A stretch of 64,000 nt of DNA from Eledone cirrhosa (lineage: Eukaryota), in contig OZ024744.1 in assembly GCA_964016885.1 (NCBI GenBank), forward strand, positions 38,998,001 to 39,062,000, given 5' to 3'. Shown piece by piece: positions 5,097 to 63,595 of the stretch. How positions within the stretch are numbered: the stretch's first letter is position 1; every line of letters begins with the position of its first letter. Position numbers and translations under genes: made by a program. The notes under the pieces are model-generated. The model was not told the origin of the DNA and did no database searches. It was given only the letters and a program-made list of their open reading frames with translations.

Positions 5097-5103
5097 ATGT
5101 ATA

Positions 5104-5463
<360 letters not shown>

Positions 5464-12261: not shown

Positions 12262-12305
12262 ATGATGCTGAGGACAGCTAATAAGCTAGACTACTAGTTC
12301 ATCGT
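12262..12305 (+). ncRNA. Hammerhead ribozyme, mutated core (family D)
   Basis: atgatg-CTGAGGA-cagctaataagcta-GACT-actagtt-catcgt; GAAA altered. Confidence 0.6.
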
Positions 12306-13451
12306 TCCATGCCAGTGTTGAACAAAAGGGCAATGATGGTTGCCGAACACTGTACGGCATAATTCGGGCTGTTTGTTTACAAACAAACCGAGCATTATAA
12401 TAAATGTTCGGTAAACCCATACGTACATATATGTATGTGTGCATGTATGTATGTTTATATATATTTATATATATACATACTACTGTACGTCTGTATACAT
12501 ATATGTATGTACGTATATATACTTATATTTATATATATACATTTTTATATAATATAGAATAATTTTAAACGACATATAGATATATCAATTGAGTAACTAA
12601 CCAGGATTTAATACATATATACATATAGAAACAAATACATGTATATATGTGTGCGTGTATGTGTGTGTGGGTGTGGGTATGGTTGTGTGTGTATTTGTTT
12701 CTATATATATATATGTATACATATGTATTAAAGCCTGGTTAGTTAATATATATGTACACAAACACCTTCCTCTCACCCCCTACTTCCACCACTAACCTCC
12801 ACTTACACACCCACAACCTACCACCTTTTTAACACCTCCTCTATTACAACCCCCCCCCCCCACACACACACACTCCACCCCCACGTCCACCACTCTATCC
12901 TTCAACTATACCTCTCTTTATACTAACACACACGCACTTACACCCTAAACGCACACACACACACACACACTCACTCACTCACACGGATCTCACCTCCTCC
13001 CACGTTCACCACACCTGCTCACACATACATACACACTTGCCTTTCCACACAGCTACTACCCTCTTACACAGACAGCAATACTGCTACTGCCTCTCACTCA
13101 CCAGTCTGTTCTGTCAGCTCCACCTCCTCCCCTACCTCTCACACATTGCTCTGCCATCTTCACCCTCACCACCCTTTCCTCCCACTCCTTTGACTTGACC
13201 ATCTTGACCACTTCCTGTTGCGCGTGCCCCTAACCTTCCAATTCCTCATCGCCATTTCTTTTTTCAACCCTACCACCAAGAATCTTCCACTTGGATATCG
13301 ACGCGATTTTACATCCGTATCTTTACCATCCACATACACACACCCCGACATCATTTCAGAATCTTAGACACACACAGATACTTGCACCACTTTCGTGCAC
13401 ACGCAACTACACATTTCACACGAGCCCACATTATCCTCTCTTAACCACAAG

Positions 13452-14962: not shown

Positions 14963-15186
<224 letters not shown>

Positions 15187-15208
15187 CACATACACTAATT
15201 CATCGCCG

Positions 15209-15252
<44 letters not shown>

Positions 15253-15320
15253 GTCTATATATATATATATATATATATATTATTATTATTATTAAGTAAT
15301 AAACAACATAAGGCAATTAT

Positions 15321-15378
15321 TCCATTTACCAGTGGTTTCTTAAAAGCAAAAGGTTTTGCTTTCAATCCTCAGAACGAA
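15321..15378 (-). ncRNA. Type I hammerhead ribozyme (family E, distal)
   Basis: ttcgtt-CTGAGGA-ttgaaagcaaaa cc ttttgcttttaa-GAAA-ccactgg-TA-aatgga. Confidence 0.85.
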
Positions 15379-15512
15379 AAAATCCTGGTTTGTTTATTGA
15401 ATTTGGATCTTAAAAACAAAAAAGCAAGCTATATGAAAGTGAGGCTGGAGAAGGAAGAAGGAAAGGAAAAAATAAAAACAAAATAAGACTACCCATACAA
15501 CCACACATACAC

Positions 15513-15547
<35 letters not shown>

Positions 15548-15926
15548 TGTGTATGCGCGCACGCACGCACGCGTATACAAATATAAATATATTTCCCCCA
15601 TACACATGTGTGTGCGTGCATGCGCGCATACGCGCAGGGTATGTTCTGTTGAAAGTGTCTCGTGAATTTATGGCTACAGTTGTATAGATTATACTTAGAA
15701 ATTGTCCACAGAATTCCCTAAACCTTCGTCAATATACTAGAACCTTTAAGAATTTAGCTTTTAAGGAATCTCCCCTTCCTCTAAATCTATCTACCATGAC
15801 TGACCCCATACTGATCTTACAGACACCTGTAAGCTAAAGAGAAAGCCAATGATAAGGAATGGCTCCAATCTGAATACAGAAATCTGTCTGCCTTTGTTCC
15901 TCTAAGAACAAACATATACAAACATT

Positions 15927-15968
<42 letters not shown>

Positions 15969-15975
15969 TATCTAC

Positions 15976-16034
<59 letters not shown>

Positions 16035-16414
16035 TACACACACACATATACACACACACACATGCATATATACACACACATACACACACACAAAAGCACA
16101 TATACATACGCACGAAATAGTCAACGCATTCACACACTCTCACACATAAAAAAATTCAAATACATAACCGCATACATACGTATACATGCATAACCACGCA
16201 CAAGTGTACAATCTATACACACACACACATGTGTATACAACTATATGCACACACACACATATATGCATACATAAGCACACATATAATTACATAAATACAA
16301 ACGTACACACACACATATATATACACACGTACACATACACACACATATACATACATAGCTAAACAATTATACACATACAAATACGTATATATCAAAAACA
16401 CGCACAACAGAACA

Positions 16415-16466
<52 letters not shown>

Positions 16467-16545
16467 TATATACACACACACACATATACAATTATCAATA
16501 TATACACACGCACATATGTACACACACACATATATACACACACAC

Positions 16546-16625
<80 letters not shown>

Positions 16626-16791
16626 GCATATACACATATACACACATACACAACCACGCCCACACACATGCATACGCATACACACGCGTATATGCGTGTG
16701 TGTATGTAAAACTCAATCTTAGATAAACCATAAGGACCTTACATATACGTATATATAGTAGTAAAGTATTAAAGCAACATAAGGCAATTAT

Positions 16792-16850
16792 TCCATTTAC
16801 CAAGGGTTTCTTAAAAGCAAAAAAAATGTTCCTACAATCATCAGGATGAG
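16792..16850 (-). ncRNA. Type I hammerhead ribozyme (family E, proximal)
   Basis: ctcatc-CTGATGA-ttgtagg..gcttttaa-GAAA-cccttgg-TA-aatgg; stems I and II partly decayed. Confidence 0.7.
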
Positions 16851-16982
16851 AGAAACCTGGCTTATCCACACATACACATATATACACACACACACACATA
16901 TACATACATATAAAAACATGCACACAGGCACACACACACATACGTATAAACATATATACATACACACATACACACACATATC

Positions 16983-17066
<84 letters not shown>

Positions 17067-17290
17067 TACACATATATACACACAAATATACACACACATA
17101 CACATAGGTATGTGGAGGGCAAGGCAAAAAGGCAAAAAGAATATATGTGGGGGCCGCATAGGAGAAGGTAAAATATAAGGGGAGGTAAGGGAGAAAAAAA
17201 TATATATAATAAATGTAGGTATACAAGAGTACAGAACGTAGAAACAGTAAAATAAAAACCGTAGCAGAAGTAAAGAGCGGGTGAAGGAGT

Positions 17291-17809
17291 TCAAGGCGGT
17301 TGATTTCTCATAGGAGTGTCAATCCAGTTACAGATCAGGTGCGGTCTCAGATGAGGACAGCATCTGAAGATCTCAGTCTTTGAATTAAGGCAAGCGGAAG
17401 TGTCTCTCAAGTTTAGCAAAATCCTATACTTTTCTGTGGTACACAAAGAACAATTCTTTGTGCCCCTTTGGTACTCCCTCGAATGGTCTAATATAGACCA
17501 ATCAATAGAGTACGGGATGTTACTATCCTTGAGTTCCCACACCTTACTTGCGAGGGCCGTTGATGTTCGTTTATCGGAGTGCTTAAAAGAAGCGACATGT
17601 GAGTAAAATCTGGTTTTAAACCTGTCCTGGGTCATACCGACATATCGCTCACTCCTGGCTGGCTGGTTGTTGATTACTGGTGTTATCGTAGCCTCATAAA
17701 CGACAGATTTAGTGTTACATCTACCCTGCAATGGGCATTCGTCCGGCTTCCTGCAACTGCATCCTGAATTTATTCTCGTCCGGTTTGAGCTGGTGATTTT
17801 GGACTTCAT
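17291..17809 (-). CDS. PLE Cys-rich linker + GIY-YIG endonuclease (C-terminal part of the polyprotein)
   Basis: CSCRKPDECPLQGRC, VVYEA..YVGMT..FKTRFYSH, WSIL, CSLCTTEK. Confidence 0.9.
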   Translation of the reverse strand: MKSKITSSNRTRINSGCSCRKPDECPLQGRCNTKSVVYEATITPVINNQPARSERYVGMTQDRFKTRFYSHVASFKHSDKRTSTALASKVWELKDSNIPYSIDWSILDHSREYQRGTKNCSLCTTEKYRILLNLRDTSACLNSKTEIFRCCPHLRPHLICNWIDTPMRNQPP

Positions 17810-17997
17810 AGATGGGCAACAAGAGTAGCTGATCTTGACTACGTTCCTTATTAAATATCTTATAGTATCTATGATTAGGAGGAAAATGTTTGTCTAATAG
17901 TTCAAGGAATTTCCTTCCTACATTAGTTTTGACAGTTAGAGAGAAGGGGGGGTGTGTGAACCAAATAATCTTCCTTTTCCTGTTATTGTGGTTAGTT

Positions 17998-19050
17998 TTA
18001 GGGGGGGGGAGTAGGTAAATAAGAATTTTTTTCTGTGAAACCACTGTTCTTAAGGGCTTTATTATAATAAGGGGCGGCTTTATTAAAAATGTCTATAGAC
18101 GAAGATAAGGTAGAAATCCTACGGCTAATGTTAGGAATAAGATTATTAAAAACTATAGGGGGATGGCAAGACTCTTTGTGTATATACCTAAGATTTTCGT
18201 TAGGTTTATGGTAGGGTTTAAAAGAGGCAGTAAGTAAATCAAGATTAATATCGAGAAAGTTAGCATTAGTAAGGTTCGTATCTATAGTAATTTTAAGGTT
18301 AAGATTAGCAAAAGTATTGATTAAATCTTTACGGAATTTATCAAGGTCATGGCCGTTGGTGGTATGAGAAACTGCTAATCCGTCATCACGGTATAAACCG
18401 ATATTATGGGACGGAAATTTCTCTTTGAGGGTGTGGAGAAGGAACAATCCAACTAAGTCACACACATCCGCACTGTCATATGAACCCATTGCGACATCAA
18501 AAGAGTTTTCAGGGTTTGACTTTTTAACCCAAATATTATCATTAGTAAAAAGTAAAGTTTTTCTAGCATGGAGGATGTCTTCTTCTAATTTAGAAATATT
18601 AATGGAGGGTCTTGCAAAATCTAAGGCCTTAGTTAATAAGGACACAGTAATAGAATGGTAAAAATCGACAATATCAAACTGGGTAAATCTACACTTATTT
18701 TTACCTTGTATATTATTGAACCAAGAAATAACAGAGGAAGTATTTAGCCACTGTGATAGGTCAGTGTTAGTTCTGATTTGGAGAATTATTTTTCTTAAGA
18801 TATTCTTACTTACAAGGCCAACCTCGGATTTAGCCGGGTTAATCAATCTACAACTAGGTCGATTAGTAAAGTCCAATTTATGGTCTTTAAGGGTAATATA
18901 TTCTTTACGCTTAGCTAAGCTTTCAATCCGGTTATCTATTTGTAAAGAACTAGCTAGTTCTTTAGCTTCTTTATTGATAGTATTGTAGGTATTATTATTA
19001 GTTAATTGATATTTATTGGTAATACTATTAGTTAAAAGTTGGTTATACAA
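17998..19050 (-). CDS. PLE reverse transcriptase (5'-truncated; frameshift at poly-C)
   Basis: RLINPAKS, FDIVDFY, GSYDSADVCDLVG, YRDDGL, NFLDI, HPP. Confidence 0.92.
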   Translation of the reverse strand: MYNQLLTNSITNKYQLTNNNTYNTINKEAKELASSLQIDNRIESLAKRKEYITLKDHKLDFTNRPSCRLINPAKSEVGLVSKNILRKIILQIRTNTDLSQWLNTSSVISWFNNIQGKNKCRFTQFDIVDFYHSITVSLLTKALDFARPSINISKLEEDILHARKTLLFTNDNIWVKKSNPENSFDVAMGSYDSADVCDLVGLFLLHTLKEKFPSHNIGLYRDDGLAVSHTTNGHDLDKFRKDLINTFANLNLKITIDTNLTNANFLDINLDLLTASFKPYHKPNENLRYIHKESCHPPIVFNNLIPNISRRISTLSSSIDIFNKAAPYYNKALKNSGFTEKNSYLPTPPP

Positions 19051-19372
19051 AGTACTATTAACTTCAAAGAGGTTTTTAGTTTTATCAGAAAGACATTTTT
19101 AATAAAGCCGCCCCTTATTATAATAAAGCCCTTAAGAACAGCGGTTTCACAGAAAAAAATTCTTATTTACCTACTCCCCCCCCCCTAAAACTAACCACAA
19201 TAACAGGAAAAGGAAGATTATTTGGTTCACACCCCCCTTCTCTTTAACTGTCAAAACTAATGTAGGAAGGAAATTCCTTGAACTATTAGACAAACATTTT
19301 CCTCCTAATCATAGATACTATAAGATATTTAATAGGAACGTAGTCAAGATCAGCTACTCTTGTTGCCCATCT

Positions 19373-19891
19373 ATGAAGTCCAAAATCACCAGCTCAAACC
19401 GGACGAGAATAAATCCAGGATGCAGTTGCAGGAAGCCGGACGAATGCCCATTGCAGGGTAGATGTAACACTAAATCTGTCGTTTATGAGGCTACGATAAC
19501 ACCAGTAATCAACAACCAGCCAGCCAGGAGTGAGCGATATGTCGGTATGACCCAGGACAGGTTTAAAACCAGATTTTACTCACATGTCGCTTCTTTTAAG
19601 CACTCCGATAAACGAACATCAACGGCCCTCGCAAGTAAAGTGTGGGAACTCAAGGATAGTAACATCCCGTACTCTATTGATTGGTCTATATTAGACCATT
19701 CGAGGGAGTACCAAAGGGGCACAAAGAATTGTTCTTTGTGTACCACAGAAAAGTATAGGATTTTGCTAAACTTGAGAGACACTTCCGCTTGCCTTAATTC
19801 AAAGACTGAGATCTTCAGATGCTGTCCTCATCTGAGACCGCACCTGATCTGTAACTGGATTGACACTCCTATGAGAAATCAACCGCCTTGA
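19373..19891 (+). CDS. PLE linker + GIY-YIG endonuclease, inverted copy
   Basis: One amino acid different from 17291-17809. Confidence 0.9.
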   Translation: MKSKITSSNRTRINPGCSCRKPDECPLQGRCNTKSVVYEATITPVINNQPARSERYVGMTQDRFKTRFYSHVASFKHSDKRTSTALASKVWELKDSNIPYSIDWSILDHSREYQRGTKNCSLCTTEKYRILLNLRDTSACLNSKTEIFRCCPHLRPHLICNWIDTPMRNQPP

Positions 19892-20765
19892 ACTCCTTCA
19901 CCCGCTCTTTACTTCTGCTACGGTTTTTATTTTACTGTTTCTACGTTCTGTACTCTTGTATACCTACATTTATTATATATATTTTTTTCTCCCTTACCTC
20001 CCCTTATATTTTACCTTCTCCTATGCGGCCCCCACATATATTCTTTTTGCCTTGCCCTCCACATACCTATGTGTATGTGTGTGTATATTTGTGTGTATAT
20101 ATGTGTATATATGTATATATATATATATAAATCAGGAAAGAAGGTTTACATGGTTTGCTATACAAAAAAGTTTTTAATCACATAGCTTACATTTGTTTCA
20201 CTGAACTGGTATGTCTAGAGATCGCTATCCGCCTAATTTTGCGTCACTCGATCGCCAATACAGAATTATAACCAGTCAGATCTTCGGAGCATGCGAGAAT
20301 GAAGAAAATACACAGGCAAGAAAAGAAAAGAAAATATGGAGTAGTTATGGCATTTAATTAGAACAATAACAACAACAATTATTACAACAATGCTATCAAT
20401 AAACTATTTAAGGAGACCCTGACATTACTTAGGTGGGGGGTATATAATGTATCTAATGTTACGGCGTGAAATCCAGCTGTCATAAGGCAAAAAGTATCGT
20501 AGTGTGTATCAATTTTAAATTATAAAGACTGTAAAAACTAGCTTATCTTTATAATTTATAATTTAAAATTGATACACACTACGATACTTTTTGCCTTATG
20601 ACACACAAATATCTATATATATATATATATATAGATATGTGTGTGTATGTGTGTATGTATATATGTTTATACGTATGTGTGTGTGCCTGTGTGCATGTTT
20701 TTATATGTATGTATTTGTGTGTGTGTGTGTGTATATATGTGTATGTGTGGATAAGCCAGGTTTCT

Positions 20766-20823
20766 CTCATCCTGATGATTGTAGGAAAAATTTTTTTGCT
20801 TTTAAGAAACCCTTGGTAAATGG
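20766..20823 (+). ncRNA. Type I hammerhead ribozyme (family E, proximal)
   Basis: CTGATGA...GAAA-cccttgg-TA-aatgg; mirror of 16792-16850. Confidence 0.7.
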
Positions 20824-20993
20824 AATAATTGCCTTATGTTGCTTTAATACTTTACTACTATATATACGTATATGTAAGGTCCTTATGGTTTATCTAAGAT
20901 TGAGTTTTACATACACACACGCATATACGCGTGTGTATGCGTATGCATGTGTGTGGGCGTGGTTGTGTATGTGTGTATATGTGTATATGCATG

Positions 20994-21120
<127 letters not shown>

Positions 21121-21131
21121 ATGTGTGTGTG

Positions 21132-21171
<40 letters not shown>

Positions 21172-21551
21172 TGTTCTGTTGTGCGTGTTTTTGATATATA
21201 CGTATTTGTATGTGTATAATTGTTTAGCTATGTATGTATATGTGTGTGTATGTGTACGTGTGTATATATATGTGTGTGTGTACGTTTGTATTTATGTAAT
21301 TATATGTGTGCTTATGTATGCATATATGTGTGTGTGTGCATATAGTTGTATACACATGTGTGTGTGTGTGTATAGATTGTACACTTGTGCGCGGTTATGC
21401 ATGTATACGTATGTATGCGGTTATGTATTTGAATTTTTTTATGTGTGAGAGTGTGTGAATGCGTTGACTATTTCGTGCGTATGTATATGTGCTTTTGTGT
21501 GTGTGTATGTGTGTGTATATATGCATGTGTGTGTGTGTATATGTGTGAGTA

Positions 21552-21628
<77 letters not shown>

Positions 21629-21635
21629 GTAGATA

Positions 21636-21691
<56 letters not shown>

Positions 21692-22067
21692 AATGTTTGT
21701 ATATGTTTGTTCTTAGAGGAACAAAGGCAGACAGATTTCTGTATTCAGATTGGAGCCATTCCTTATCATTGGCTTTCTCTTTAGCTTACAGGTGTCTGTA
21801 AGATCAGTATGGGGTCAGTCATGGTAGATAGATTTAGAGGAAGGGGAGATTCCTTAAAAGCTAAATTCTTAAAGGTTCTAGTATATTGACGAAGGTTTAG
21901 GGAATTCTGTGGACAATTTCTAAGTATAATCTATACATCTGTAACCATAAATTCACGAGACACTTTCAACAGAACATACCCTGCGCGTATGCGCGCATGC
22001 ACGCACACACATGTGTATGGGGGAAATATATTTATATTTGTATACGCGTGCGTGCGTGCGCGCATAC

Positions 22068-22155
<88 letters not shown>

Positions 22156-22245
22156 GTGTATGTGTGGTTGTATGGGTAGTCTTATTTTGTTTTTATTTTT
22201 TCCTTTGTTTTTAAGATCCAAATTCAATAAACAAACCAGGATTTT

Positions 22246-22303
22246 TTCGTTCTGAGGATTGAAAGCGAAACCTTTTGCTTTTAAGAAACCACTGGTAAAT
22301 GGA
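22246..22303 (+). ncRNA. Type I hammerhead ribozyme (family E, distal)
   Basis: ttcgtt-CTGAGGA-12-bp stem II-GAAA-ccactgg-TA-aatgga. Confidence 0.87.
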
Positions 22304-22434
22304 ATAATTGCCTTATGTTGTTTATTACTTAATAATAATAATTAAGCTCTGTTGCTTACATAGAGCACTCTTTTTTCCTGGACTTTTCCGACGGAATTAC
22401 TTCACATATATATATATATATAGACATATGTGTA

Positions 22435-22482
<48 letters not shown>

Positions 22483-25026: not shown

Positions 25027-25160
25027 TATGTATACGTACATACATATATGTATACAGACGTACAGTAGTATGTATATACATACATACATGCTGCTCGGCC
25101 GTTAATATGTATAAGGAAAGTATATACTTTCAAACGTTCAATCAACTGACAGGAAGGTAT

Positions 25161-25203
25161 ACGGTGCTGATGACAGCTAATAAGCTAGAAACCTGTTCAT
25201 CGT
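25161..25203 (+). ncRNA. Type I hammerhead ribozyme (family D)
   Basis: acggtg-CTGATGA-cagctaataagcta-GAAA-cctg-TT-catcgt. Confidence 0.85.
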
Positions 25204-25676
25204 TCCTTTGTCAGTGTTGAACAAAAGGGCAACGATGGTTGCCGAACACTGTACGGCTAATAATTCGGACTGTTTGTTTACAAACAAACCGATCATTATA
25301 ATAAATGTTCGGTAAACCCATGCGTACATATATATATGTGGTTGTATGTATGTATATACATACTACTGTACGTCTGTATACATATATGTATGTACGTATA
25401 CACACTTATATTTAAGTAACAGCCGTACTAAGAGTGAGAAATGAAATTTCATTTTTTCCATATATATATATATATACACATCATTTTATTAATCTCCCCT
25501 AAGGTTGAGATAACATTTTGGTCGTTTGAACTGCTGCTATTTCTACTGGCCTTTTGTCTTTACACACGGCACTAGACAAAATCGGTTCCTTCCTCATTGA
25601 CTCTCATCCGGGAAGTTTTGTATGGCGCCAGTTTGTGATTTGAACTCGGGAATGTTATATGCTCCGAGCGAGAAGA

Positions 25677-29851: not shown

Positions 29852-30024
29852 AACTATTATAGGCACCCGTTTTACGTGTGCTGTATTGAAGCAAATAACT
29901 ATGTGTATACTCTGGGAATGTATCTTACATTACCCATGGAGTACGCTGAGATACAACCGGTCCTGGCATTGATAAATATGCTGGGCTCGTCAACTCCTTA
30001 TTATAAATATATATATATATATAT

Positions 30025-30169
30025 AACAAAGGAAGTGTGGTAAGGAACCAGGTGGACCATAACACACTAGAGTACTCAATACTTAGGGTAGTAGAGTGGG
30101 TAATAGGAAAATGTTCAAGACCCCGACGGCAGAGCTCAAACCGTTTCGACTAGTCCAGAAATAGCCGTC

Positions 30170-30172
<3 letters not shown>
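30025..30172 (-). mobile_element. Family C PLE tail between (TA)n tracts
   Basis: Matches 45405-45540. Confidence 0.8.
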
Positions 30173-30219
<47 letters not shown>

Positions 30220-37631: not shown

Positions 37632-38653
37632 GCGTGGGGGGGGGGGGGGGGGTAAATATGGGGCTAGATGCTCTATCAAGTTATGAATTGGGTGTTGAGT
37701 TCTAGCCTATTATTGATTGGTGGTTGTGTTTTTTCTATAATTAATGCTTCCTTAATTCTAAGATTGCCGAGGTTTCTTTCCTTAGTTTCTATCCTAACTG
37801 TTATGGTTTTGTCGGTGTTTTTGCATTTAACTAGGTGTTTCTTAAATGAGGAAGCGTTAGTATTGAGGTGTTCTTTTATTCTAATGTGGAGTGGTCTGGT
37901 GGTGCTACCTACGTAGAAGTTGCTGCATTTGTCACACTCTAGTCTGTATACGACGTAAGCCTGGTGGCATAGGTCTGTGTAGTTGATGGGGCAGTTGGCT
38001 AGCCTGCAGCAGTTGTCATGTCTGGTGGAGTGTCTTTTGGTTAGCTGTCCGCGTAGAGAAGGACCTGAGTGGGCCAGTTGGATATCTAGTCCCTCTCGTC
38101 TGATAGCTCTGCGGATGGCTGTTGTTGTTTCGTCACTGAAGTGTGGGAGCTTCAGGAAGCAAGTGTTAGTGCCTCGGGCGTGGTGTCCTCTGTTCTTTCT
38201 GGCACGGTTTGTGGTGGATGTCGTGTATCCGTTCTGTTTGAGTACTTCCAGGAAATGTGTGGTGCGTGTGTCTCGGTCTCTAGCGTCGGTGCATTTGTTC
38301 CCGATACGTGTTAGTTCGTTCCTTATGTATCCGAACTTAGCACCGGCTGGGAGGGCCGATCTGAAATGTACGAACAGGTCCCTGCTGGCGGCTTTTTTAT
38401 AGAAGCAGGTGGGATGTTGCCTTCCTCTGTTACCCTGAGTTGGAAGTCCAGTAGGGATAGGGATCCGCGGTCATCGGGGTGTTCCATGCTGAACTTTATA
38501 CAGGCGTCCATGCTGGAGAATGTTGTGTATATTTTATCTGCCTCCTCACGGGATGATTATACATATACAAACGTTTATACCTCATTACACAATGCTTCAA
38601 GTGAACTATAACTTCCTCCTTTCCTTACGCCTGAGCCAGGCCCAGTTCACAAC

Positions 38654-38694
38654 TGTCCTCCGAAGAAGAGATATTATCTCGAAAATTAAGGACA
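38654..38694 (+). ncRNA. Minimal hammerhead variant, CCGAAGA core (family J)
   Basis: tgtcct-CCGAAGA-agagatattatctc-GAAA-at-TA-aggaca; perfect 6-bp stem I; AAUU stem III can form only as a dimer. Confidence 0.75.
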
Positions 38695-39004
38695 TTTAAA
38701 TAAATCAAAGGTAAAAGACTAACTGTCAACAATATCTTTTGCATTTGTCCATACCTGCATTGTTTTGGCTTTATTATACATATACAAACGTTTATACCTC
38801 ATTACACAATGCTTCAAGTGAACTATAACCTCCTCCTATATATATATATATATTTAAAAGAATAGAGGTGTAACACACGAGTTGTGATATATTGGTAAAA
38901 GGAAAAGGAAATGCTGACAAATTGTTCCCAGTGAAAAATAGTTTAATTAGGAATAAGCAAAAATTAGTAATAAGTATTGGTTAGTATTCAGTTTTAGTTT
39001 TAAG

Positions 39005-39043
39005 TTTTTACCGGTTGCGCATTTCTAATGCTTTTCAAAAATA
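39005..39043 (-). ncRNA. Hammerhead-like variant (UUGAAAA/GCAA; family K)
   Basis: ttt-TTGAAAA-gcatt aga aatgc-GCAA-ccgg-TA-aaa; identical copy at 44982-45018 (+). Confidence 0.5.
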
Positions 39044-39426
39044 ATTTTGAGATAGAGCGCCCGTGATGTTTGCTCTAATCTGATTAGTTTTGGAAATTCT
39101 ACCTGTTTTATGTGAAAAAAGTGGCTCCAGAGGTATTAAAATAAGTTTCACGCCAATTCGTGTTGCAAAAATTCTTGTGGTCAAAACAATTTTGATTGGT
39201 CGCTAGAGGTCACGTGAATGCTAAAAATTGATTTTGCGCCAATTGTAGGTTTGTCGAAGAGTGTCCTTTTTCGCCTGATTGAGAAGTCACTGAAAAATAA
39301 GTCTTTTAAGACAAATATGTGTGTGTGTGTAGTAAAGAGGTTCATTGTTGTGATAATTGTCAGTAGTGATGTGTGTGAATTGCAGTCATGTTGAAAGGTC
39401 AACAGTTCAGGTGCCTATTAAAACAA

Positions 39427-39538
<112 letters not shown>

Positions 39539-40215
39539 CAGAGTAATTCGTGGTAGAGGGATCGGTCAGTAGGAATGTGTCTGTACGTGTGTCGGGGATA
39601 TTTTAACATGTTGAAAGATATTTTACAGCTCTTGTCTTATACGGAGAAGTGAGTGTGTGTGTGTGTATAAGTCTCTTTGTATGTTAGTGTACGCGTGTGT
39701 ATGTGTGTATGTGTGTGTATATATATATATATGTGTGTGTGTGTATATGTGTGTATGTGTGTGGGGTAGACCAGTATTTTTGTGATACTGGTAAAAATGG
39801 TGTACATTATTCGATATTTTCAGCAAAAACGATTCTCTCAAGAGAACATCAATAACATCAATAATAAAAGGGGTGAAATGACATATAGTATTGTCATAAC
39901 ACCAAGGTGTGTGTGAGTGTCCAGATTGTACGTACTGCAAGAGGAATCCATTAGGCCCTGCCGTATTGGAATACTTGTGTACAAATATGTATGTGCCCAT
40001 CAGTGTGCAATGCATGTGTGCGTATATGTATGTGTGTGTGTCGGCACGTCTATATCTATAGACATCAAAAGGTATGCACATTTGTCTATATTTGTGTTGC
40101 ACCATAGAACATCTGTGTTTACGTATGTCATTGTGTTTATATGTGGATAGAGATGTATGTAGGATTTATGCTGATGTAGGTATGTATGTTGACGTGTGTA
40201 TGTTGTGGGTTCGTC

Positions 40216-40758
40216 TTAGGGAGAAGTGTTTAGACGGGGTTCGTATTTGTTAATAAAGTGAGGTTCCTTGCTGATGCGCTGGGTGTGGGTGGCATTATCT
40301 TTAAATTTGTAGAAGGGAAAGATTCTAAAATTGGGATGATTTTGGGCGGCACAGGTATCAATGTGTTCACTCAGTGGTATTTTCCTGTATTCCCGTATTT
40401 TAATTTGGGATCTATGGACAGTCATGCGTTGGCGGAGGCTGTTTTTGGTCTGGCCTATGTATTGTTCTCGACAACCTGAGCAAGTTAATACATATATTAG
40501 ATTTTCTGATGCGCATGTGAAATTGTGTTTTACTATAAAACGTTGTCCTTCTTTGAAATAGAATTCCGAACCCTCTATTAGGTTGATGCATATGCCACAG
40601 TTGGGTCTATCGCATTTTTTTACTGTGGGTTTCGTTGTTGTGGTTGGCAGTACTTTGGCATGTGTTAGGATGTTTTTCATTGACTTAGATTGTCTTTTGC
40701 TCTTTATGATATCGTGTGTTCGAAGGATTTGATTCATTCTATGGTCCTTTTTTAACAC
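40216..40758 (-). CDS. PLE Zn-linker + GIY-YIG endonuclease
   Basis: CDRPNCGIC, FTCASENLIYVLTCSGCREQYIGQT, RMTVHR, HIDTC, LN. Confidence 0.9.
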   Translation of the reverse strand: MLKKDHRMNQILRTHDIIKSKRQSKSMKNILTHAKVLPTTTTKPTVKKCDRPNCGICINLIEGSEFYFKEGQRFIVKHNFTCASENLIYVLTCSGCREQYIGQTKNSLRQRMTVHRSQIKIREYRKIPLSEHIDTCAAQNHPNFRIFPFYKFKDNATHTQRISKEPHFINKYEPRLNTSP

Positions 40759-40788
40759 AGGATGTTCTGGAGGATGGTGTCAAAGGCC

Positions 40789-41900
40789 TCATTGTTGAGG
40801 GGAGTTGTGTGTGGAGATGTATGGAAGAGCTTTTAGTTTCGGTTGATTTAATTTAGGGTGTCTAAGGTCCTGGGTACTGAGTTTTAGGGCACGTTGGATT
40901 CCATTGTCAATTAGTGATGCAGGGTAGTCCCTGCTTATGAATGTGTCCTTTAGTTCTTGTAGCCGTAAGTAACAGTTGTTTTTATTGGAGACTATAGTAC
41001 AGATTCTCTTGGCTAAGTTGTAGGGAATATTAATTTTAACGTGTCTAGGGTGGCAAGAGTTGAAAGGAAGATATTGCTTGGAGTCTGTGGGCTTGTAGTA
41101 TATGTCTGTTTCTATTTTTTTGTTATGAATCTTAATGAGGATGTCGAGAAAGGGGAGTTGTTGATGGTTGTATTCCATCGTAAAGTTAATATTCGTGTTG
41201 AGCCCATTTATAAGGGTGTGAAATTCTTTAAGTTTCTCGATGTTTTCGTGCCAAAGGATGAAGCAGTCATCTAGATATCGCTTCCAGTTCCTTTCTATGT
41301 GTAAGTGGAGAGTGTTTCCAAATTTGTTTAGTACTGTGTAGAGGGTGATTTCCAGGTATCCCATGACTAGGTTGGCATAAGTGGGGGCTGTTTTCGTTCC
41401 CATAGCGGTCCCAGATTTCTGCCTGTAGGGTTTGTTATTGAAAACGAAGTAATTGTTCTCCAAGATAAATTTGAGTCTCTCTATCACGAATTCTTTTTTG
41501 ATGCGTTGTGGAAGTTCATTGTGGTAATTATCCAGCCAGAATTGGATAGCTTCTATTCCTAGGTTGTGGGGGATGTTGGAGTATAGGTTGACTACATCGA
41601 ACGTCACTAGTACGGTTTGTTCAGAAAGTGGCATATTAGGGAGGTGATTGAGCATATCTAGGTTGTCCCTTATATAGCTTTTGAAGTGTTTGAGAAAAGG
41701 CTTGAGAAGGGTATCAATGAAGTTGCTAAGGCGGTGGGTTTCGCAAGCGGGGCCTGCTATTATAGGTCTTAATTTGAGATCATTGGGTGAGGGAACATTG
41801 ATGACTATGTCTGTGGCTTCCTTGCATGCCTTACTTATTAATTCGCTTTTATGTACTTTAGGGATACCGTAGAAAAGGCTGGATTTACTTGTGAAGTCTG
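40789..41900 (-). CDS. PLE reverse transcriptase (frameshifted segments)
   Basis: FYGIPKVHK, LRPIIAG, FDVVNLYSNIP, GTAMGTKTAPTYANL, RYLDDCF, FLD, HP. Confidence 0.92.
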
Positions 41901-42185
41901 TGATGAAGCTGAATTCCTTGTTAGTGAGTCCTTCTTTGTATTGGTTGATCAGGTGTGGGTTTGTTGTGTATTGTGGAAGCGAGAGTTGAGAAAATGGAAA
42001 TTACCTTGCTGTCCCCTTGAAGCGAGGAAGTTGTTACATCTATCATGGTGGTGGTATCTTTTCCCTATGTTTGACGATGAGGCATCTGCATAGTAGTTGA
42101 GTGATTTGGTATGGTGTCTCCTTGAAGGGGGGAAAGTTGTAAATGTCATTCTGGGGGTGATAATTTCTAGGGTTTTTGTTCCTTC

Positions 42186-43015
42186 TTATGGAAACGAGGT
42201 TGGGAAGTTCATCTTCGGTGTGGTGCTTCTTTCTTCTTTTGTTAGTGGGTTTGCGAAGTTGTTGTGCGGTTCGGTTATGTGTTTTCCTATTTTTATGAAC
42301 GGGTTATTGGAGGTGTAATCCGTTTGAAAAGTCGATTCATAGTTTAGGAACCAAGCGGCACTTTTTTCCCAGCGTTGAAGGGATTTCAGTTCTTCTCTGT
42401 TGCAGTCCCCTTTCCATAATTTAGAGATCTTCTCTACCTTGGGGCCTTCAGTCTTATTGTTGATTTCCAGGAGAATCTCTTCATCGATGGTTTTGATTTT
42501 TTCCTCATTTGTCTGGGCCCTCAATTTAAGAAGTTCAATTTCTGTCTTCATTTTTTCCAATGCCATTCTTTCCCTAAGGTGTCTTTGAGGTTCGGGTTCA
42601 TTTGGAATGGACTTTATTTGTATTTTACGGAGGAGAGTTAGAGGTTTGAGTTAAGCCATTTTTCATATATCTCCGCTTTGTTGTAATTTTATATCATCTT
42701 CCAGAATGAGAACTTTCTGTCTCTGAGGGATTTGTTCCATTTTGGAATTGTTCGAATTTTCATTTTATATGAATCAATCTCACATGGTTCTTCGTTGGTT
42801 TTTCCTGGGTTGGTAGTAGTGAACATAGTTTGGATAGTATCGCAAAGGTTTTGAAGTTTATCGCAGATTTCGGAGGGTTTGTATCCGGTGACGGTTTCCT
42901 CATTTGTGGAGTCAAGTTTGTCGACCAGCACAGATAGGTTGGTGTTAATTTGCTTGAGTTCCTGTAGAATCTCTTCATTTGTGTTGATAAGAGTTGTATC
43001 TGTTTTTGTTGGCAT
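42186..43015 (-). pseudogene. N-terminal coiled-coil region of the same PLE ORF (split)
   Basis: ORFs 42689-43015 and 42186-42566 are collinear upstream of the RT; ATG ~30 nt after the upstream pLTR end. Confidence 0.65.
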
Positions 43016-43528
43016 TTTCTATATCTCGTGTGAGGGTATGATATTTAAAAGAATAGAGGTGTAACACACGAGTTGTGATATATTGGTAAATGGAAAAGGA
43101 AATGCTGACAAATTGTTCCCAGTGAAAAATAGTTTAATTAGGAATAAGTAAAAATTAGTAATAAGTATTGGTTAGTATTCAGTTTTAGTTTTAAGTTTTT
43201 ACCGGTTGCGGAAAAAAGTGGCTCCAGAGGTATTAAAATAAGTTTCGCGCCAATTCGTGTTGCAAAAATTCTTGTGGTCAAAACAATTTTGATTGGTCGC
43301 TAGAGGTCACGTGAATGCTAAAAATTGATTTTGCGCCAATTGTAGGTTTGTCGAAGAGTGTCCTTTTTCGCCTGATTGAGAAGTCACTGAAAAATAAGTC
43401 TTTTAAGACAAATATGTGTGTGTGTGTGTAGTAAAGAGGTTCATTGTTGTGTAGGGTCAGTAGGGTTGTGTGTGTGAATTGCAGTCATGTTGAAAGGTCA
43501 ACAGTTCAGGTGCCTATTAAGACAAATA

Positions 43529-43605
<77 letters not shown>

Positions 43606-44243
43606 CAGAGTAATTCGTTGTAGAGGGATCGGTCAATAGGAATGTGTCTGTACGTGTGTCGGGGATATTTTAACATGTTGAAAGATATTTTTCAGCTCTT
43701 GTCTTATACGGAGAATTGTGTGTATGTTAGTGTACGCGTGTGTATGTGTGTGTGTATATATGTGTGTGTGTATGTGTGTGTGTGTGCGTGTGGGTAGACC
43801 AGTATTTTTGTGATACTGGTAAAAATGGTGTACATTATTCGATATTTTCAGCAAAAACGATTCTCTCAAGAGAACATCAATAACATTAATAATAAAAGGG
43901 GTGAAATGATATATAGTATTGTCATAACACCAAGGTGTGTGTGAGTGTCCAGATTGTACGTACTGCAAGAGGAATCCATTAGGCCCTGCCGTATTGGAAT
44001 ACTTGTGTACAAATATGTATGTGCCCATCAGTGTGCAATGCATGTGTGCGTATATGTATGTGTGTGTGTCGGCACGTCTATATCTATAGACATCAAAAGG
44101 TATGCACATTTGTCTATATTTGTGTTGCACCATAGAACATCTGTGTTTACGTATGTCATTGTGTTTATATGTGGATAGAGATGTATGTAGGATTTATGCT
44201 GATGTAGGTATGTATGTTGACGTGTGTATGTTGTGGGTTCGTC

Positions 44244-44880
44244 TTAGGGAGAAGTGTTTAGACGGGGTTCGTATTTGTTAATAAAGTGAGGTTCCTTGCT
44301 GATGCGCTGGGTGTGGGTGGCATTATCTTTAAATTTGTAGAAGGGAAAGATTCTAAAATTGGGATGATTTTGGGCGGCACAGGTATCAATGTGTTCACTC
44401 AGTGGTATTTTCCTGTATTCCCGTATTTTAATTTGGGATCTATGGACAGTCATGCGTTGGCGGAGGCTGTTTTTGGTCTGGCCTATGTATTGTTCTCGAC
44501 AACCTGAGCAAGTTAATGCATATATTAGATTTTCTGATGCGCATGTGAAATTGTGTTTTACTATAAAACGTTGTCCTTCTTTGAAATAGAATTCCGAACC
44601 CTCTATTAGGTTGATGCATATGCCACAGTTGGGTCTATCGCATTTTTTTACTGTGGGTTTCGTTGTTGTGGTTGGCAGTACTTTGGCATGTGTTAGGATG
44701 TTTTTCATTGACTTAGATTGTCTTTTGCTCTTTATGATATCGTGTGTTCGAAGGATTTGGTTCATTCTATGGTCCTTTTTTAACACAGGGATGTTCTGGA
44801 GGATGGTGTCAAAGGCCTCATTGTTGAGGGGGTTGTGTGTGGAGATGTATGGAAGAGCTTTTAGTTTCGGTTGATTTACT
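44244..44880 (-). CDS. PLE linker + GIY-YIG, tandem upstream partial copy
   Basis: Near-identical to 40216-40850 and open through the region frameshifted in the downstream copy. Confidence 0.88.
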
Positions 44881-44981
44881 TTAGGAATACCTTTGGAGCC
44901 ACTTTTTTCACATAAAACAGGTAGAATTTCCAAAACTAATCAGATTAGAGCAAACATCACGGGCGCTCTATCTCAAAATTA

Positions 44982-45018
44982 TTTTTGAAAAGCATTAGAA
45001 ATGCGCAACCGGTAAAAA
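44982..45018 (+). ncRNA. Hammerhead-like variant (family K, inverted copy)
   Basis: TTGAAAA-gcattagaaatgc-GCAA-ccgg-TA. Confidence 0.5.
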
Positions 45019-45368
45019 CTTAAAACTAAAACTGAATACTAACCAATACTTATTACTAATATTTACTTATTCCTAATTAAACTATTTTTCACTGGGAAAA
45101 ATTTGTCACCATTTTCTTTTCCTTTTACCAATATATATATATATATATATATGAATATATCTATAGTACATTTGGCAATATACTGTATGTTTAATTAAAA
45201 ACATTTAGATGACCATTAGGTATGAGTTTTAAAGTAGTGACTATGTCACTTACTTAATCTCGGCATATATATATTTGTATATATATATAAACGTAAAAAA
45301 TGAAACGAAATTTCATTTCTCACTCATACTTATATTTATATATATATATATAAATATATATATATATA

Positions 45369-45404
<36 letters not shown>

Positions 45405-45496
45405 ACGAAGGAAATGTGGTGAGGAACCAGGTGGACCATAACGCACCAAAGTACTCAATACTTAGGGTAGTAGAGTGGGTAATAGGAACGAGTAGG

Positions 45497-45592
45497 ACCC
45501 CGACGGCTGAGCTCAAGCCGTTTCGACGGCTAATTCTGGACTAAATGAAAATGTTTATCCTGGTATATGAAAAGCCGAGCTTCTCAGGGGGT
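45497..45592 (-). ncRNA. Hammerhead variant with CUGAGAA core and extended stems II/III (family C)
   Basis: acccc-CTGAGAA-gctcggct...agccgtc-GAAA-cggct tgagctc agccG-TC-ggggt. Confidence 0.75.
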
Positions 45593-46945
45593 AATTCCAT
45601 ATATGGTAAAAGTGATTGTCACAAGGATTGGTCAAAAGTTTGTTGTTGAGACACATAATTCTATCATGGCAATTTGTGGAAAGAAGGAGTAGCTGAACCT
45701 GCCAGTAGAAGAAAGAGGGAGAGGGAGTGGAGGAAACCCAGTCTTGCGTTGATAGTGCCAACTACAACAGGATCCTAAGGGCAGGAGGTCAAGCAAGTAT
45801 ACTAGGGAGGGGGAGGGGAGGCAGTCGAAACAATAAGTAAATCAATATGGAGTAAATATATAGAAGACTACCAAGAATGTTAAAAATATAATAAAACAAT
45901 TTCTGGTTACTATTCCCTAACCACAATCATCAAGTCTCTCACTGGTACTGCTAAACTATAGAAAAGTTAACTAGGTGGGACGGAATTGTAGTGGGACAAT
46001 TTTATGAGTTAGTAGTAATCAACCGAGTATATCTTACAGTGACAGGTCAACAAGTGGGGGGCCAAAATACTAAAGAAACTACCACGAAATAATAATTCGG
46101 AGTCCCGAAACTAATACGAAATAATTGTTTCTACTCCAGGCACAAGGCCAGCAATCACCCAGTGCAAAACATAAACTAATACGAAATAATAATTCAGAAT
46201 CCCGAAAATGAATACTAATACTATCTCTAAGGGTGCCGCTACGATACAAAAATTCTAGTACAAACTACATAAATGTTCGTACGATATATATGAAAGATTT
46301 GATACGGAAAATTAATTCAGAATCCCCCCCCCCCAAAAAAAAAAAAATAATAAATACTGATATACGAGAAACTAAAGCAGATGCCACTAAGAAATGTAGA
46401 AAGCACGGAAATGGGGCAGCCATCGGATAAGAAAGCAAGTATCTGGGGTCTATCACCTCTGCTATAAAAAGCGGAGTCGGCCAATTCTATCACAGAATAG
46501 GGGATGGGGGTGGGGGTACTGAGGCTACAAAGGACCGAGGGGCTGCCTCGGGGTTGGCGAGAAAGTGAAAAGGACGACGACAAAGAAGGAGGACTGATGT
46601 GGAAGGACTAGGAAGGGATGGGATGAAGAAGGAAATATAGAGGAAACGATAAAAAAGATATAAAAGAAAATCTTACGTCTACCTTTGCAAGCAGGTGTTA
46701 CCCATTACAAAGTCGGCAAGTGGGGTGTTACAGCCCTTGTCTACCCCCCGGGTCATTATGGGGTTTGAGGGCGAGGTAAGTCCTACGCAATCTGTGTTTG
46801 CATGCAATTACCAGTTCGTCTTTCCTGTTTAGGAGTTGGTCCGTCGAAAACAGGCATTTGTAAAGTTTCCTCCGAGCATAAATTGCACGGACGGCGTCCT
46901 CCCGTGTAAGAGTTGGCTCTGGACAGTAAGCTCCAAGTGAAAATT

Positions 46946-47041
46946 ACCCCCTGAGAAGCTCGAGTATTCATATACCAGGATAAAAATGTTCATTTAGTCC
47001 AGAATTAGCCGTCGAAACGGCTTGAGCTCAGCCATCGGGGT
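46946..47041 (+). ncRNA. Hammerhead variant with CUGAGAA core (family C, inverted copy)
   Basis: acccc-CTGAGAA-gctcg...agccgtc-GAAA-cggcttgagctcagccA-TC-ggggt. Confidence 0.7.
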
Positions 47042-47053
47042 CCTACTCGTTCC

Positions 47054-47086
<33 letters not shown>

Positions 47087-47224
47087 AATAAATGTAATCT
47101 GAGTTGTTTCGAATATTAATAATAACATTCAATTCGTTTGCAATTATGCAAACAAGCCTCAATTTTATAGCCATGTCAGTAGAATGAGCCCCTCATTCTT
47201 TCTCTTATGTTGGCATGCGAACAG

Positions 47225-47272
47225 AACTGTAGACACTAATATTTCTTGGTATCACCCTTCATCAGTACAGCT
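47225..47272 (-). ncRNA. Type I hammerhead ribozyme (family L)
   Basis: agctgta-CTGATGA-agggtgataccaa-GAAA-tattagtg-TC-tacagtt. Confidence 0.82.
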
Positions 47273-47661
47273 GACTTCACCTGCCAACTGTCAGAGCTAG
47301 TGAAAATATATACTATTTTCAAAAATACAGTGACTGATCGGCCTGATTTGCATATTAGCAGGCTAATATCAGATTAATATTCGAAAAAACTCAGATTACA
47401 TTTATTGTATTCAGCCATGTAGAGCGAAATTTTCTTTTTTATTTGAATTTGGCAAAGCCGGCCATTTATCGCTGGTATACAGGAAACTGACTGGCCAGTC
47501 TGCTGATATGCAAATCTGGCTGATCAGTGGATCTGCTAATATGCAGATCTGACTGATCAGCCAGTCTGCTAATATGCAAATCAGGCCGATCAGTAACTGT
47601 GTAGTTTAGAAAATAGCATATATTTTCACTAGCTCTGACAGTTGGCAGGTGGACAGTGAGG

Positions 47662-47703
47662 TGTACTGATGAAGGGTGATACCCAGAAACATTAGTGTCT
47701 GCA
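47662..47703 (+). ncRNA. Type I hammerhead ribozyme (family L)
   Basis: tgta-CTGATGA-agggtgataccca-GAAA-cattagtg-TC-tgca. Confidence 0.87.
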
Positions 47704-48155
47704 GTTCATTTACATGCCAACACAAGAGCAAGAATGAGGGGCTCATTCTACTGACATGGCTTTAAAATGAGGCTTGTTTGCATAATTGCAAACGAATTGA
47801 ATGTTATATATATATAGAGAGAGAGATAAATATACACAGACGTGTATGATTGTGTATAGAAGATTATATTAAGAAAAGGAATTCCAACTTTGTCTGATTT
47901 ACTCGTTTTATTTACAATCCTTTAAAATTTATAATGGTATACCTGCCCCCACCACTCCACTGAAAAGATACTACACACCCTCCCATGTCCCATTGTCCTT
48001 CCGACTCTCTCTCTCTGAATAATTAACACTTTAATAGTATCTCTCTCTCTATCTAACGGCCTATCTCTCTCTTTTTCCCCTCCCCTCTGTTTTTCTGTCT
48101 CTCTCTGTAGATGTGTGTGTGTAGTTTTCCTAATCTTTCTCTAAATCTCTCTCTT

Positions 48156-57705: not shown

Positions 57706-57984
57706 GAATAATGATGCTGTTTTTGTAGTCACTGAATGGGTACCTGAGCTTTTTCCTTTCCATTTCCATGACCAGCTCGGATTTTGTGTGGTGGGGTGTT
57801 TCCTGATCTATCTTGACCAGGAGCTCCATCCCTATCACCGAGAAGGTAGCCTCACCACTTCTACGATAGTCATCTCATCTATTTCTAATGGCATATATAT
57901 AAATATATATATATATATATAAAATATTAAAAAAATAATGAATAAAACAATGAAACAGTTCCTTATATTAAACAAAAAAAGTTC

Positions 57985-58131
57985 ATTACTTAACGATCGT
58001 TTCTAGGACATATATGTGTTAGAATTGGCATGCATATTCAAAAGATCTATGTACAAAATTATACAAAATTATACAAACTATCAAATAGAATATACATACC
58101 AACACATACATATGCCGTCTTCAGAAATAAT
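57985..58131 (-). ncRNA. Type I hammerhead ribozyme with ~115-nt stem II (family M)
   Basis: Mirror of 58373-58519. Confidence 0.8.
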
Positions 58132-58372
58132 GAAATATATTTATTGATAATAACAACAATTCAAAATTACATTGTTCAAAATAACGAGGGCGGTGGATTG
58201 GCAGTGTCGGTAGAGGGTCGGACGCCATGCTTTCCAGCATAGTTACGTCCCTTTACGATCTGAGTTCAAATCCCGCCGAGGTTGACTTTGCCTTTCATCC
58301 TTACGGGGTCGATAAAATAAAGTACCAGTAATGCACTGGATAATTGCTGGCCTTATGCCTAAAGTAGAAACA

Positions 58373-58519
58373 ATTATTTCTGAAGACGGCATATGTATGT
58401 GTTGGTATGTATATTCTATTTGATAGTTTGTATAATTTTGTATAATTTTGTACATAGATCTTTTGAATATGCATGCCAATTCTAACACATATATGTCCTA
58501 GAAACGATCGTTAAGTAAT
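58373..58519 (+). ncRNA. Type I hammerhead ribozyme with ~115-nt stem II (family M)
   Basis: attattt-CTGAAGA-cggcatatgtatgtgtt...aacacatatatgtccta-GAAA-cgatcg-TT-aagtaat. Confidence 0.8.
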
Positions 58520-58716
58520 GAACTTTTTTTGTTTAATATAAGGAACTGTTTCATTGCTTTATTCATTATTTTTTTAATATTTTATCTTGACTCTGTATTC
58601 CGTTTATCTTTCACCGAAAGTGATTTTTGAATGCATCTCTTCTTTCCATGATATCCGGATTACATTGAGTTCTTCATACGGATTGGACACTACCGTAAAC
58701 TTTTGGTAGATTTATC

Positions 58717-58802
<86 letters not shown>

Positions 58803-63203: not shown

Positions 63204-63368
63204 TCATACAATTTTGAGGTGTAGTTATGCAAATATGCAGATATGCCGCTGATAATATATTACCATCTTGGTGTGATGCGAGCGAACGTATGCTTTTGGA
63301 TTGCTTAAACCGGTTTATCTTCCCGGATAAACACCCTTATTATCTGCACTATATATATATATATATAT

Positions 63369-63564
63369 GAACGAGTAGGACCCCGACGGCTGAGCTCAAG
63401 CCGTTTCGACGGCTAATTCTGGACTCAGTCCAGAATTAGCCGTCGAAACGGCTTGAGCTTAGCCGTCGGGGTCCTACTCGTTCCTATTACCCACTCTACT
63501 ACCCTAAGTATTGAGTACTTTGGTGCGTTATGGTTCACCTGGTTCCTTACCACATTTCTTCCGT

Positions 63565-63566
<2 letters not shown>
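63369..63566 (+). mobile_element. Fold-back family C mini-insertion (near-perfect ~115-bp palindrome + tail)
   Basis: Palindrome centred near 63426; 3' half of HHR in both arms; (TA)n on both sides. Confidence 0.85.

Positions 63567-63595
<29 letters not shown>

What the first reader, a model, noticed from the sequence alone, without database searches (positions are those of the whole stretch)
47086..47807. Coding-free fold-back element with two outward-facing hammerheads
About 240-bp inverted arms each carry an HHR (47225 minus, 47662 plus), with no ORF and TA-rich flanks. The loop holds an inverted copy of the tail and 33-bp repeats. A transcript from either strand contains one sense HHR and folds into a long hairpin. 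The same architecture recurs in unrelated families (11620, 57920, 60092). This suggests either a general class of non-autonomous HHR fold-back elements mobilised by PLE RT, or the minimal product of PLE 5' inversion. The arms differ at several sites, so this copy is old or combines two variants.
Basis: partly seen in the sequence, partly recalled or inferred. Interest (0 to 1): 0.78.

Follow-up and report, generated by a model that had tools for sequence, protein, structure and literature searches.

The report
Fold-back insertion of a hammerhead retrozyme
This 720-base hairpin is a real but one-off insertion of an abundant 435-base non-coding repeat that carries a hammerhead-ribozyme motif, likely pasted in by Penelope-type jumping-gene enzymes that often leave two shortened copies head to head, so the hairpin is a known kind of insertion scar and not a new element.

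Summary
The hairpin and both hammerhead cores are real. What spreads is not the fold-back but a 435-nt ORF-less unit (window 47373-47807) with one type I hammerhead. It resembles a non-LTR retrozyme (4202 first-look candidates genome-wide). The window copy is one unit plus an inverted 5'-truncated partial copy. Of 94 loci, 60 are such fold-backs, with turn points spread along the unit; this copy's junction was not found again. This scan has reported that layout before on other genomes. Added here: in 38 of 40 scorable fold-backs one end stops at a short site and the other about 35 nt further on. The same holds in three other families (9/9, 6/6, 13/14), one of them a coding PLE. Neither end type goes with the longer arm (18 vs 19). 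This favours priming from both target ends at two RNA sites, and links retrozymes to PLE enzymes by their insertion signature. The 33-bp repeats match the motif upstream of the host's U6 genes (a lead only). No autonomous partner was found; cleavage and expression are untested.

The parts
47054..47087 (.). (TA)n target run, left flank
   Evidence: 82 of 98 classed fold-back ends lie at a TA run, against 13% background
47083..47364 (-). Inverted 5'-truncated copy: unit positions M191-435, then M1-38. Ends at the 'short' site (about M33; the last bases merge with the TA run)
47232..47265 (-). Type I hammerhead core of the left arm. Core intact; helix II reduced to 3 bp; U-G wobble in helix III
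47352..47372 (.). Head-to-head junction: 8-bp local palindrome around a 2-nt loop plus a short filler; not found elsewhere
47373..47807 (+). One 435-nt unit (M1-435) of the retrozyme-like family. The roughly 70-nt tailed end expected after it is missing
47430..47440 (+). T4/T6 run (M58-68), where the family's 'long' ends cluster (mode M70); possible Pol III terminator
   Evidence: role inferred
47486..47594 (+). Three 33-bp repeats. Each has an octamer-like word; the last (47573) is within one mismatch of the motif at -77 to -79 of host U6/U6atac genes
   Evidence: promoter role inferred
47615..47625 (+). TATA-like box 42-44 nt after that motif (host genes: 46-48)
   Evidence: role inferred
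47659..47706 (+). Type I hammerhead: core 47666-47699, helix I 4 bp in this copy, helix II 4 bp beside an A-A mismatch, helix III 3 bp; helix III region is self-complementary (dimer predicted)
47808..47817 (.). Short TA run, right flank

Best explanation
This is a single, aged insertion of an abundant 435-nt non-coding hammerhead unit (retrozyme-like), likely written in by a Penelope-like RT/GIY-YIG enzyme acting in trans. Shown: tandem ORF-less unit, variable head-to-head turn points, TA targets, one short and one tailed end per insertion, arms that usually share a haplotype. Inferred: a multimeric transcript from a tandem source locus is bound by the PLE protein. Both strands of a (TA)n site are cut, and each DNA end primes reverse transcription, one at the short RNA site (about M33) and the other about 35 nt downstream (about M70). 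The two cDNAs stop at variable points and are joined head to head by microhomology or a short snap-back. The hairpin is a by-product. With one sense hammerhead per strand this copy could not release a unit-length circle and is likely a dead end. Its two arms likely came from two different unit variants, and its tailed end was likely lost later or never completed.
For: Unit map and variable turn points over 94 loci: 60 fold-back, 29 one-orientation, 5 complex. End rule 38 of 40 (2 long-long, 0 short-short; binomial p 7e-10), and 11 of 12 in the last-fetched set. 9/9 and 6/6 in two other ORF-less tandem families; 13/14 in a family shown to be the end of a coding PLE. The window's coding PLE at 38850-45136 has ends that differ by 37 nt. 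Longer arm is the short-ended one in 18, the tailed one in 19, equal in 1. Haplotype agreement: inverted arms 130/145 site comparisons, tandem neighbours 83/92, between loci 56%. This copy's arms carry opposite common alleles at several polymorphic sites. Layout and one-sided 30-40-bp tail are published (PMC8557442; PMC3846280). A purified PLE cuts and extends both strands and starts at two RNA sites that bound the tail (PMC11167929).
Against: No coding PLE sharing this unit's sequence was found, so the enzyme is inferred from the scar. This copy itself lacks the tailed end, and 20 of 60 fold-backs could not be scored at both ends. Loci are the top-scoring hits to four queries, not a random sample. 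Self-copying followed by trimming of either end could give the same end pattern. Target duplications were seen at only 2 of 94 loci (3 rows, one low-complexity). No pile-up of 5' ends at the hammerhead cut site (4 vs 3.2 expected). The 57920 family does have a recurrent turn point.
Confidence: 0.8

Rival explanations
1. Same element and enzyme, but the inversion arises by self-priming: one nucleic-acid strand folds back and copies itself (the antisense self-priming model of Arkhipova et al. 2013), and the endonuclease then trims one end to give the one-sided tail.
For: 8-bp palindrome at this junction; palindromes at inverted junctions are the published basis of the model; arms share haplotypes about 90% of the time; Craig et al. 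ascribe the tail to EN-mediated resolution.
Against: Neither end type is tied to the longer arm (18 vs 19). In L032, L054, L060 and L062 neither arm contains the other. This copy's arms carry different common alleles. The lizard PLE starts RT at both tail boundaries in vitro.
Confidence: 0.12
2. The hairpin is itself the mobile unit, a non-autonomous fold-back element copied as a whole.
For: 7 of 1770 pairs among the 60 fold-backs have turn points within 5 nt on both sides (about 2 expected under a uniform spread, my arithmetic). In the 57920 family two loci share one junction and three more lie within a few bases.
Against: No second copy of this junction among 40 scored of 556 candidates. The near-matching pairs inspected differ in filler or in which end is tailed. 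Contigs of public runs show many different low-depth joints (15 of 72 rows shown). The 57920 cluster sits at a short palindrome where my query began, and one of the two identical loci has short-short ends while the other is short-long.
Confidence: 0.03
3. The unit is just the pseudo-LTR of a coding PLE and these are its 5'-truncated remains.
For: This is the case for the 57920 family; the layout is identical.
Against: The 3' end of the unit runs straight into the start of the next unit, with arms up to 882 nt and two same-strand hammerheads at 14 of 94 loci. No shared non-unit sequence lies 5' of 29 one-orientation copies. PLE fragments next to four copies that were examined sit 3' of the unit and were not a shared, contiguous partner.
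Confidence: 0.05

Closest known systems
Insertion units of endonuclease-positive Penelope-like elements (Craig et al. 2021, PMC8557442; Arkhipova et al. 2013, PMC3846280)
   Same: Partial tandem, adjoining inverted 5'-truncated copy, 30-40-nt tail at one end, microsatellite targets, hammerhead near the 3' end. Craig et al. also mention non-autonomous Chlamys elements that form pLTRs.
   Different: No RT-EN ORF; the repeating unit is only 435 nt; no partner with shared sequence was found.
Animal non-LTR retrozymes (Cervera and de la Pena 2020, PMC7229834; Li et al. 2026 preprint 10.64898/2026.07.22.740005)
   Same: 150-450-bp tandem unit with one type I hammerhead, low GC (0.36-0.39), no ORF, strongly self-paired predicted circle, proposed PLE dependence.
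   Different: Seen here as dispersed insertions of at most about 2 units with PLE-type inversions and tails, which the passages I read do not describe for retrozymes; circRNA untested.
Poseidon element of the green anole in vitro (Frangieh et al. 2024, PMC11167929)
   Same: Two RT start sites bounding the tail; cleavage and extension of both strands; AT-rich targets; hammerhead cleavage not needed for insertion.
   Different: That paper reports no difference in start site between strands and, in the main text read, no one-site-per-end pairing within an insertion.
Newt satellite 2 and schistosome SM-alpha hammerhead repeats
   Same: Hammerhead repeats with their own internal snRNA-type (Pol II) or Pol III promoter, as cited in PMC2220036.
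   Different: Here the match is to the host's U6/U6atac upstream motif plus a TATA-like box at shorter spacing; the primary papers were not held.

Membership tests
Type I hammerhead ribozyme | Core CUGANGA / GAAA / NUH | tested here: met
   Both arms; near-invariant over 78 aligned copies
Type I hammerhead ribozyme | Helices I-III can form; short helix III, self-complementary for dimer | tested here: met
   4-7, 3-4 and 3 bp; helix III duplex -8.8 and -5.0 kcal/mol; the monomer hammerhead fold is not the minimum-energy fold
Type I hammerhead ribozyme | Match to an Rfam hammerhead model | tested here: not met
   No hammerhead family at E up to 10
Type I hammerhead ribozyme | Self-cleavage | not testable with these tools
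   Indirect 5'-end test flat, p 0.41
Animal non-LTR retrozyme | Tandem unit of 150-450 bp with one type I hammerhead | tested here: met
   435-nt unit; two same-strand hammerheads at 14 of 94 loci
Animal non-LTR retrozyme | No coding capacity, GC under 50%, self-paired circle | tested here: met
   Frames up to 79 codons; GC 0.36-0.39, circular MFE -147 to -168 vs about -100 for block shuffles, 4 natural units
Animal non-LTR retrozyme | Long multimeric arrays | tested here: inconclusive
   Longest arm 882 nt among 94 loci of about 3 kb; no dedicated search
Animal non-LTR retrozyme | Abundant linear and circular RNA | not testable with these tools
   No RNA holder listed
EN+ PLE insertion unit | Partial tandem plus inverted 5'-truncated copy | tested here: met
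   60 of 94 loci; 16 of 28 in the hammerhead-only query
EN+ PLE insertion unit | 30-40-nt tail at one end | tested here: met
   End modes M33 and M70; 38 of 40 one of each; missing in this copy
EN+ PLE insertion unit | Microsatellite or AT-rich target, TSD when visible | tested here: met
   82 of 98 ends at TA runs vs 13%; 10- and 12-bp duplications at L015 and L026, 0 of 466 control pairs
Autonomous PLE | RT plus GIY-YIG ORF | tested here: not met
Non-autonomous derivative of a named PLE | End sequence shared with an autonomous partner | tested here: inconclusive
   No match to the 30 loci of one young PLE family, to the window's PLEs, or to four neighbouring fragments; most families not surveyed
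Self-propagating fold-back / MITE-like element | Same internal junction and symmetric termini at many loci | tested here: not met
U6-type (type 3) Pol III promoter | Host upstream motif | tested here: met
   Same 12-nt motif at -77 to -79 in 3 U6 and 1 U6atac upstream regions; one mismatch in this unit, none in the 11.6-kb family; 3% of shuffled units
U6-type (type 3) Pol III promoter | Motif-to-TATA spacing as in host genes | tested here: not met
   42-44 vs 46-48 nt
U6-type (type 3) Pol III promoter | 5' ends at the predicted start | tested here: inconclusive
   8 vs 5.4 expected, p 0.18

The most novel reading that the evidence does not exclude
Animal retrozymes here carry a captured U6-type promoter and are inserted by a PLE dimer that primes both target strands, each at its own fixed RNA site, one short and one tailed. 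This would explain the PLE inverted copy and one-sided tail in a single step. It could even join two different RNAs head to head, as in the unit-U6atac junction at L260.
Probability: 0.35. Interest if true: 0.55.

Novelty: new member of a known kind. Interest (0 to 1): 0.3.

Why it matters
As an object it is an ordinary scar. Its use is as data on two open points. The origin of PLE tandem/inverted structures is called undefined in PMC8557442, and the pairing of one short with one tailed end (66 of 69 scorable insertions in four families) is a sharp prediction for the existing in vitro PLE system. That PLE enzymes move animal retrozymes has been proposed from co-occurrence and phylogeny; here three ORF-less families share the insertion signature of coding PLEs in the same genome.

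Tried and rejected
Rfam scans gave no hammerhead hit. Partner hunt: the young 784-aa PLE family (30 loci), the window's PLEs, and four PLE fragments beside copies of the unit shared no sequence with it. Expression: no RNA holder listed, no evidence either way. Laying contigs of four runs did not resolve an empty site because repeat contigs swamp the stretch. 5'-end enrichment at the cut site and at the predicted start was not significant. U2 upstream regions showed no match to the unit. Of 12 extra snRNA stretches and 8 U6atac loci, only L256 had the upstream motif; the rest look like pseudogenes or another promoter class and were left out. L1-type twin priming was rejected because both insertion ends are the element's 3' end facing outward. 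Paper searches found no paper that counts paired short/long ends or reports a U6-type motif in retrozymes. Subscription papers and all supplements (Frangieh Fig. S2, the Craig files, the preprint's files) were not seen and may contain this. Two primary papers were not held.

Full report
Observation. The arms, both hammerhead cores, the absence of an ORF, the TA flanks, the 33-bp repeats and the inverted 38-mer are all present. The cores start at 47666 (+) and 47265 (-). Rfam does not recognise them; they pass a manual test of core and helices and are near-invariant in 78 aligned copies. Short, self-complementary helix III is the form described for metazoan hammerheads that work as dimers (PMC4209133, passages).

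What the unit is. The window lies in a 3.0-Gb genome. A search with the whole element gave 4202 first-look candidates, 40 scored. Mapping showed a 435-nt unit M (47373-47807) whose end runs into the start of the next unit. The window copy is M1-435 on + preceded, head to head, by M191-435 plus M1-38 on -. So the 'tail copy' and the 33-bp repeats belong to the unit. I fetched 102 loci with four queries and dropped 8 duplicates, leaving 94: 60 fold-backs, 29 in one orientation, 5 complex. In the query least biased to hairpins, 16 of 28 were fold-backs. Arms reach 882 nt, 14 of 94 loci hold two same-strand hammerheads, and no shared non-unit sequence lies 5' of the 29 one-orientation copies. Copies are 4.9% from the column majority on average, so the family is moderately old. 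Size, GC and predicted circular fold fit non-LTR retrozymes (PMC7229834, passages).

Turn points are spread along the unit. A query across this junction found, besides itself, one spanning hit at 81% among 40 scored of 556 candidates, and that hit maps to a different junction. Seven of 1770 pairs fall within 5 nt on both sides; those inspected differ in filler or in which end is tailed. Contigs of public runs show many separate low-depth joints. The hairpin is therefore not the propagating unit. Against full generality: the 57920 family has a recurrent turn point at a short palindrome, with two identical junctions, though my query began at that point.

End rule. Ends cluster at M33 and M70. 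Of 60 fold-backs, 40 could be classed at both ends: 38 short-long, 2 long-long, 0 short-short (p 7e-10 against independence); the last-fetched set gave 11 of 12. The window copy is short plus unclassed, since it stops at M435. Other families: the 11620 family is a 429-nt ORF-less unit, 9 of 9 classed (13 fold-backs in 24 loci); the 60092 family is a 325-nt unit, 6 of 6 (9 fold-backs in 24 loci); both were scored by eye. The 57920 family is the end of a coding PLE (RT and EN fragments in L214): 13 of 14, with a tail of about 140-150 nt and two loci scored by eye. Two coding PLEs in the window have the same inverted layout (15136-22482; 38850-45136, ends differing by 37 nt).

Mechanism. The longer arm is short-ended in 18 cases and tailed in 19, and in L032, L054, L060 and L062 neither arm contains the other, which plain self-copying cannot give. 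Arms agree at 130 of 145 polymorphic-site comparisons, tandem neighbours at 83 of 92, unrelated loci at 56% (sites are linked and pairs are not independent), so both arms usually come from one source, though not provably one molecule. The window copy is an exception: its arms differ by 8%, like random copies, and carry opposite common alleles at three linked sites and one indel, besides private changes. A purified lizard PLE cuts and extends both strands and starts at two RNA sites bounding the tail (PMC11167929, parts 1-2 of 4 read). I infer priming from both target ends, one site each, then head-to-head joining. Self-priming with later trimming (PMC3846280, passages; PMC8557442, passages) is not excluded. 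The enzyme is inferred: no partner was found.

Promoter lead. The last 33-bp repeat is within one mismatch of a 12-nt motif found at -77 to -79 of three U6 and one U6atac upstream regions of this genome; the 11620 family carries it exactly. A TATA-like box follows at 42-44 nt (host 46-48), which would put the start about 20 nt before the hammerhead core, and the first T run downstream is where long ends cluster. Against: the spacing differs, 5' ends do not pile up there, the 11620 long end lies a few bases past its T run, and the 60092 family lacks the motif. Internal promoters are known for newt and schistosome hammerhead repeats (cited in PMC2220036, passages; the primary papers were not held). 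I put this at about even odds.

Comparison and verdict. It works like a PLE insertion and files as a retrozyme-like non-autonomous element; it is not an autonomous PLE and not a self-propagating fold-back. The layout is published, a 2026 preprint already argues that retrozymes depend on PLEs (first part, passages and Discussion read), and earlier notes of this scan reached the same reading on other genomes (seen after I had stated mine). New here are the counts for paired ends across families and the promoter lead. Cleavage and expression are untested. Novelty: new member of a known kind; interest 0.3.

Noticed in passing
L260 (G000:C19:7529994-7533117), locus 1257-1624: An inverted piece of the unit (M169-409) abuts a full-length U6atac copy head to head with no filler: possibly two different RNAs copied from the two target ends, or two separate insertions. 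One case only.
   Followed up: partly
18 of 94 unit loci, e.g. L015, L033, L048: A 190-bp SINE-like repeat (as at window 58190-58379) has its 3' end abutting unit position M1 on the same strand: an insertion hot spot inside the retrozyme.
   Followed up: partly
window 15136-22482: Large coding PLE in fold-back layout; inner arms 98% identical, RT- and EN-like frames, four hammerhead-like motifs.
   Followed up: partly
window 37676-45136: Partial-tandem PLE with RT and GIY-YIG. Its family is young: many near-identical copies, 784-aa open frames, 20390 candidates.
   Followed up: partly
window 57919-58740: End of a young coding PLE (99% identity between copies) with a hammerhead-like core whose helix II is about 110 nt long, read by eye; recurrent turn point just upstream of the core.
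   Followed up: partly
window 11634-12531 and 25090-25465: 429-nt ORF-less hammerhead unit that aligns with this unit from the promoter-like motif through the hammerhead: possibly a related family.
   Followed up: partly
window 46942-47056 (also 5028-5391, 30002-30219, 45331-45596, 63350-63594): Another abundant repeat that forms inverted pairs and sits beside TA runs; it borders this element on the left.
   Followed up: no
L248, L249, L258: U6 and U6atac copies that start directly after TA runs and lack the upstream motif; likely retrocopies.
   Followed up: no
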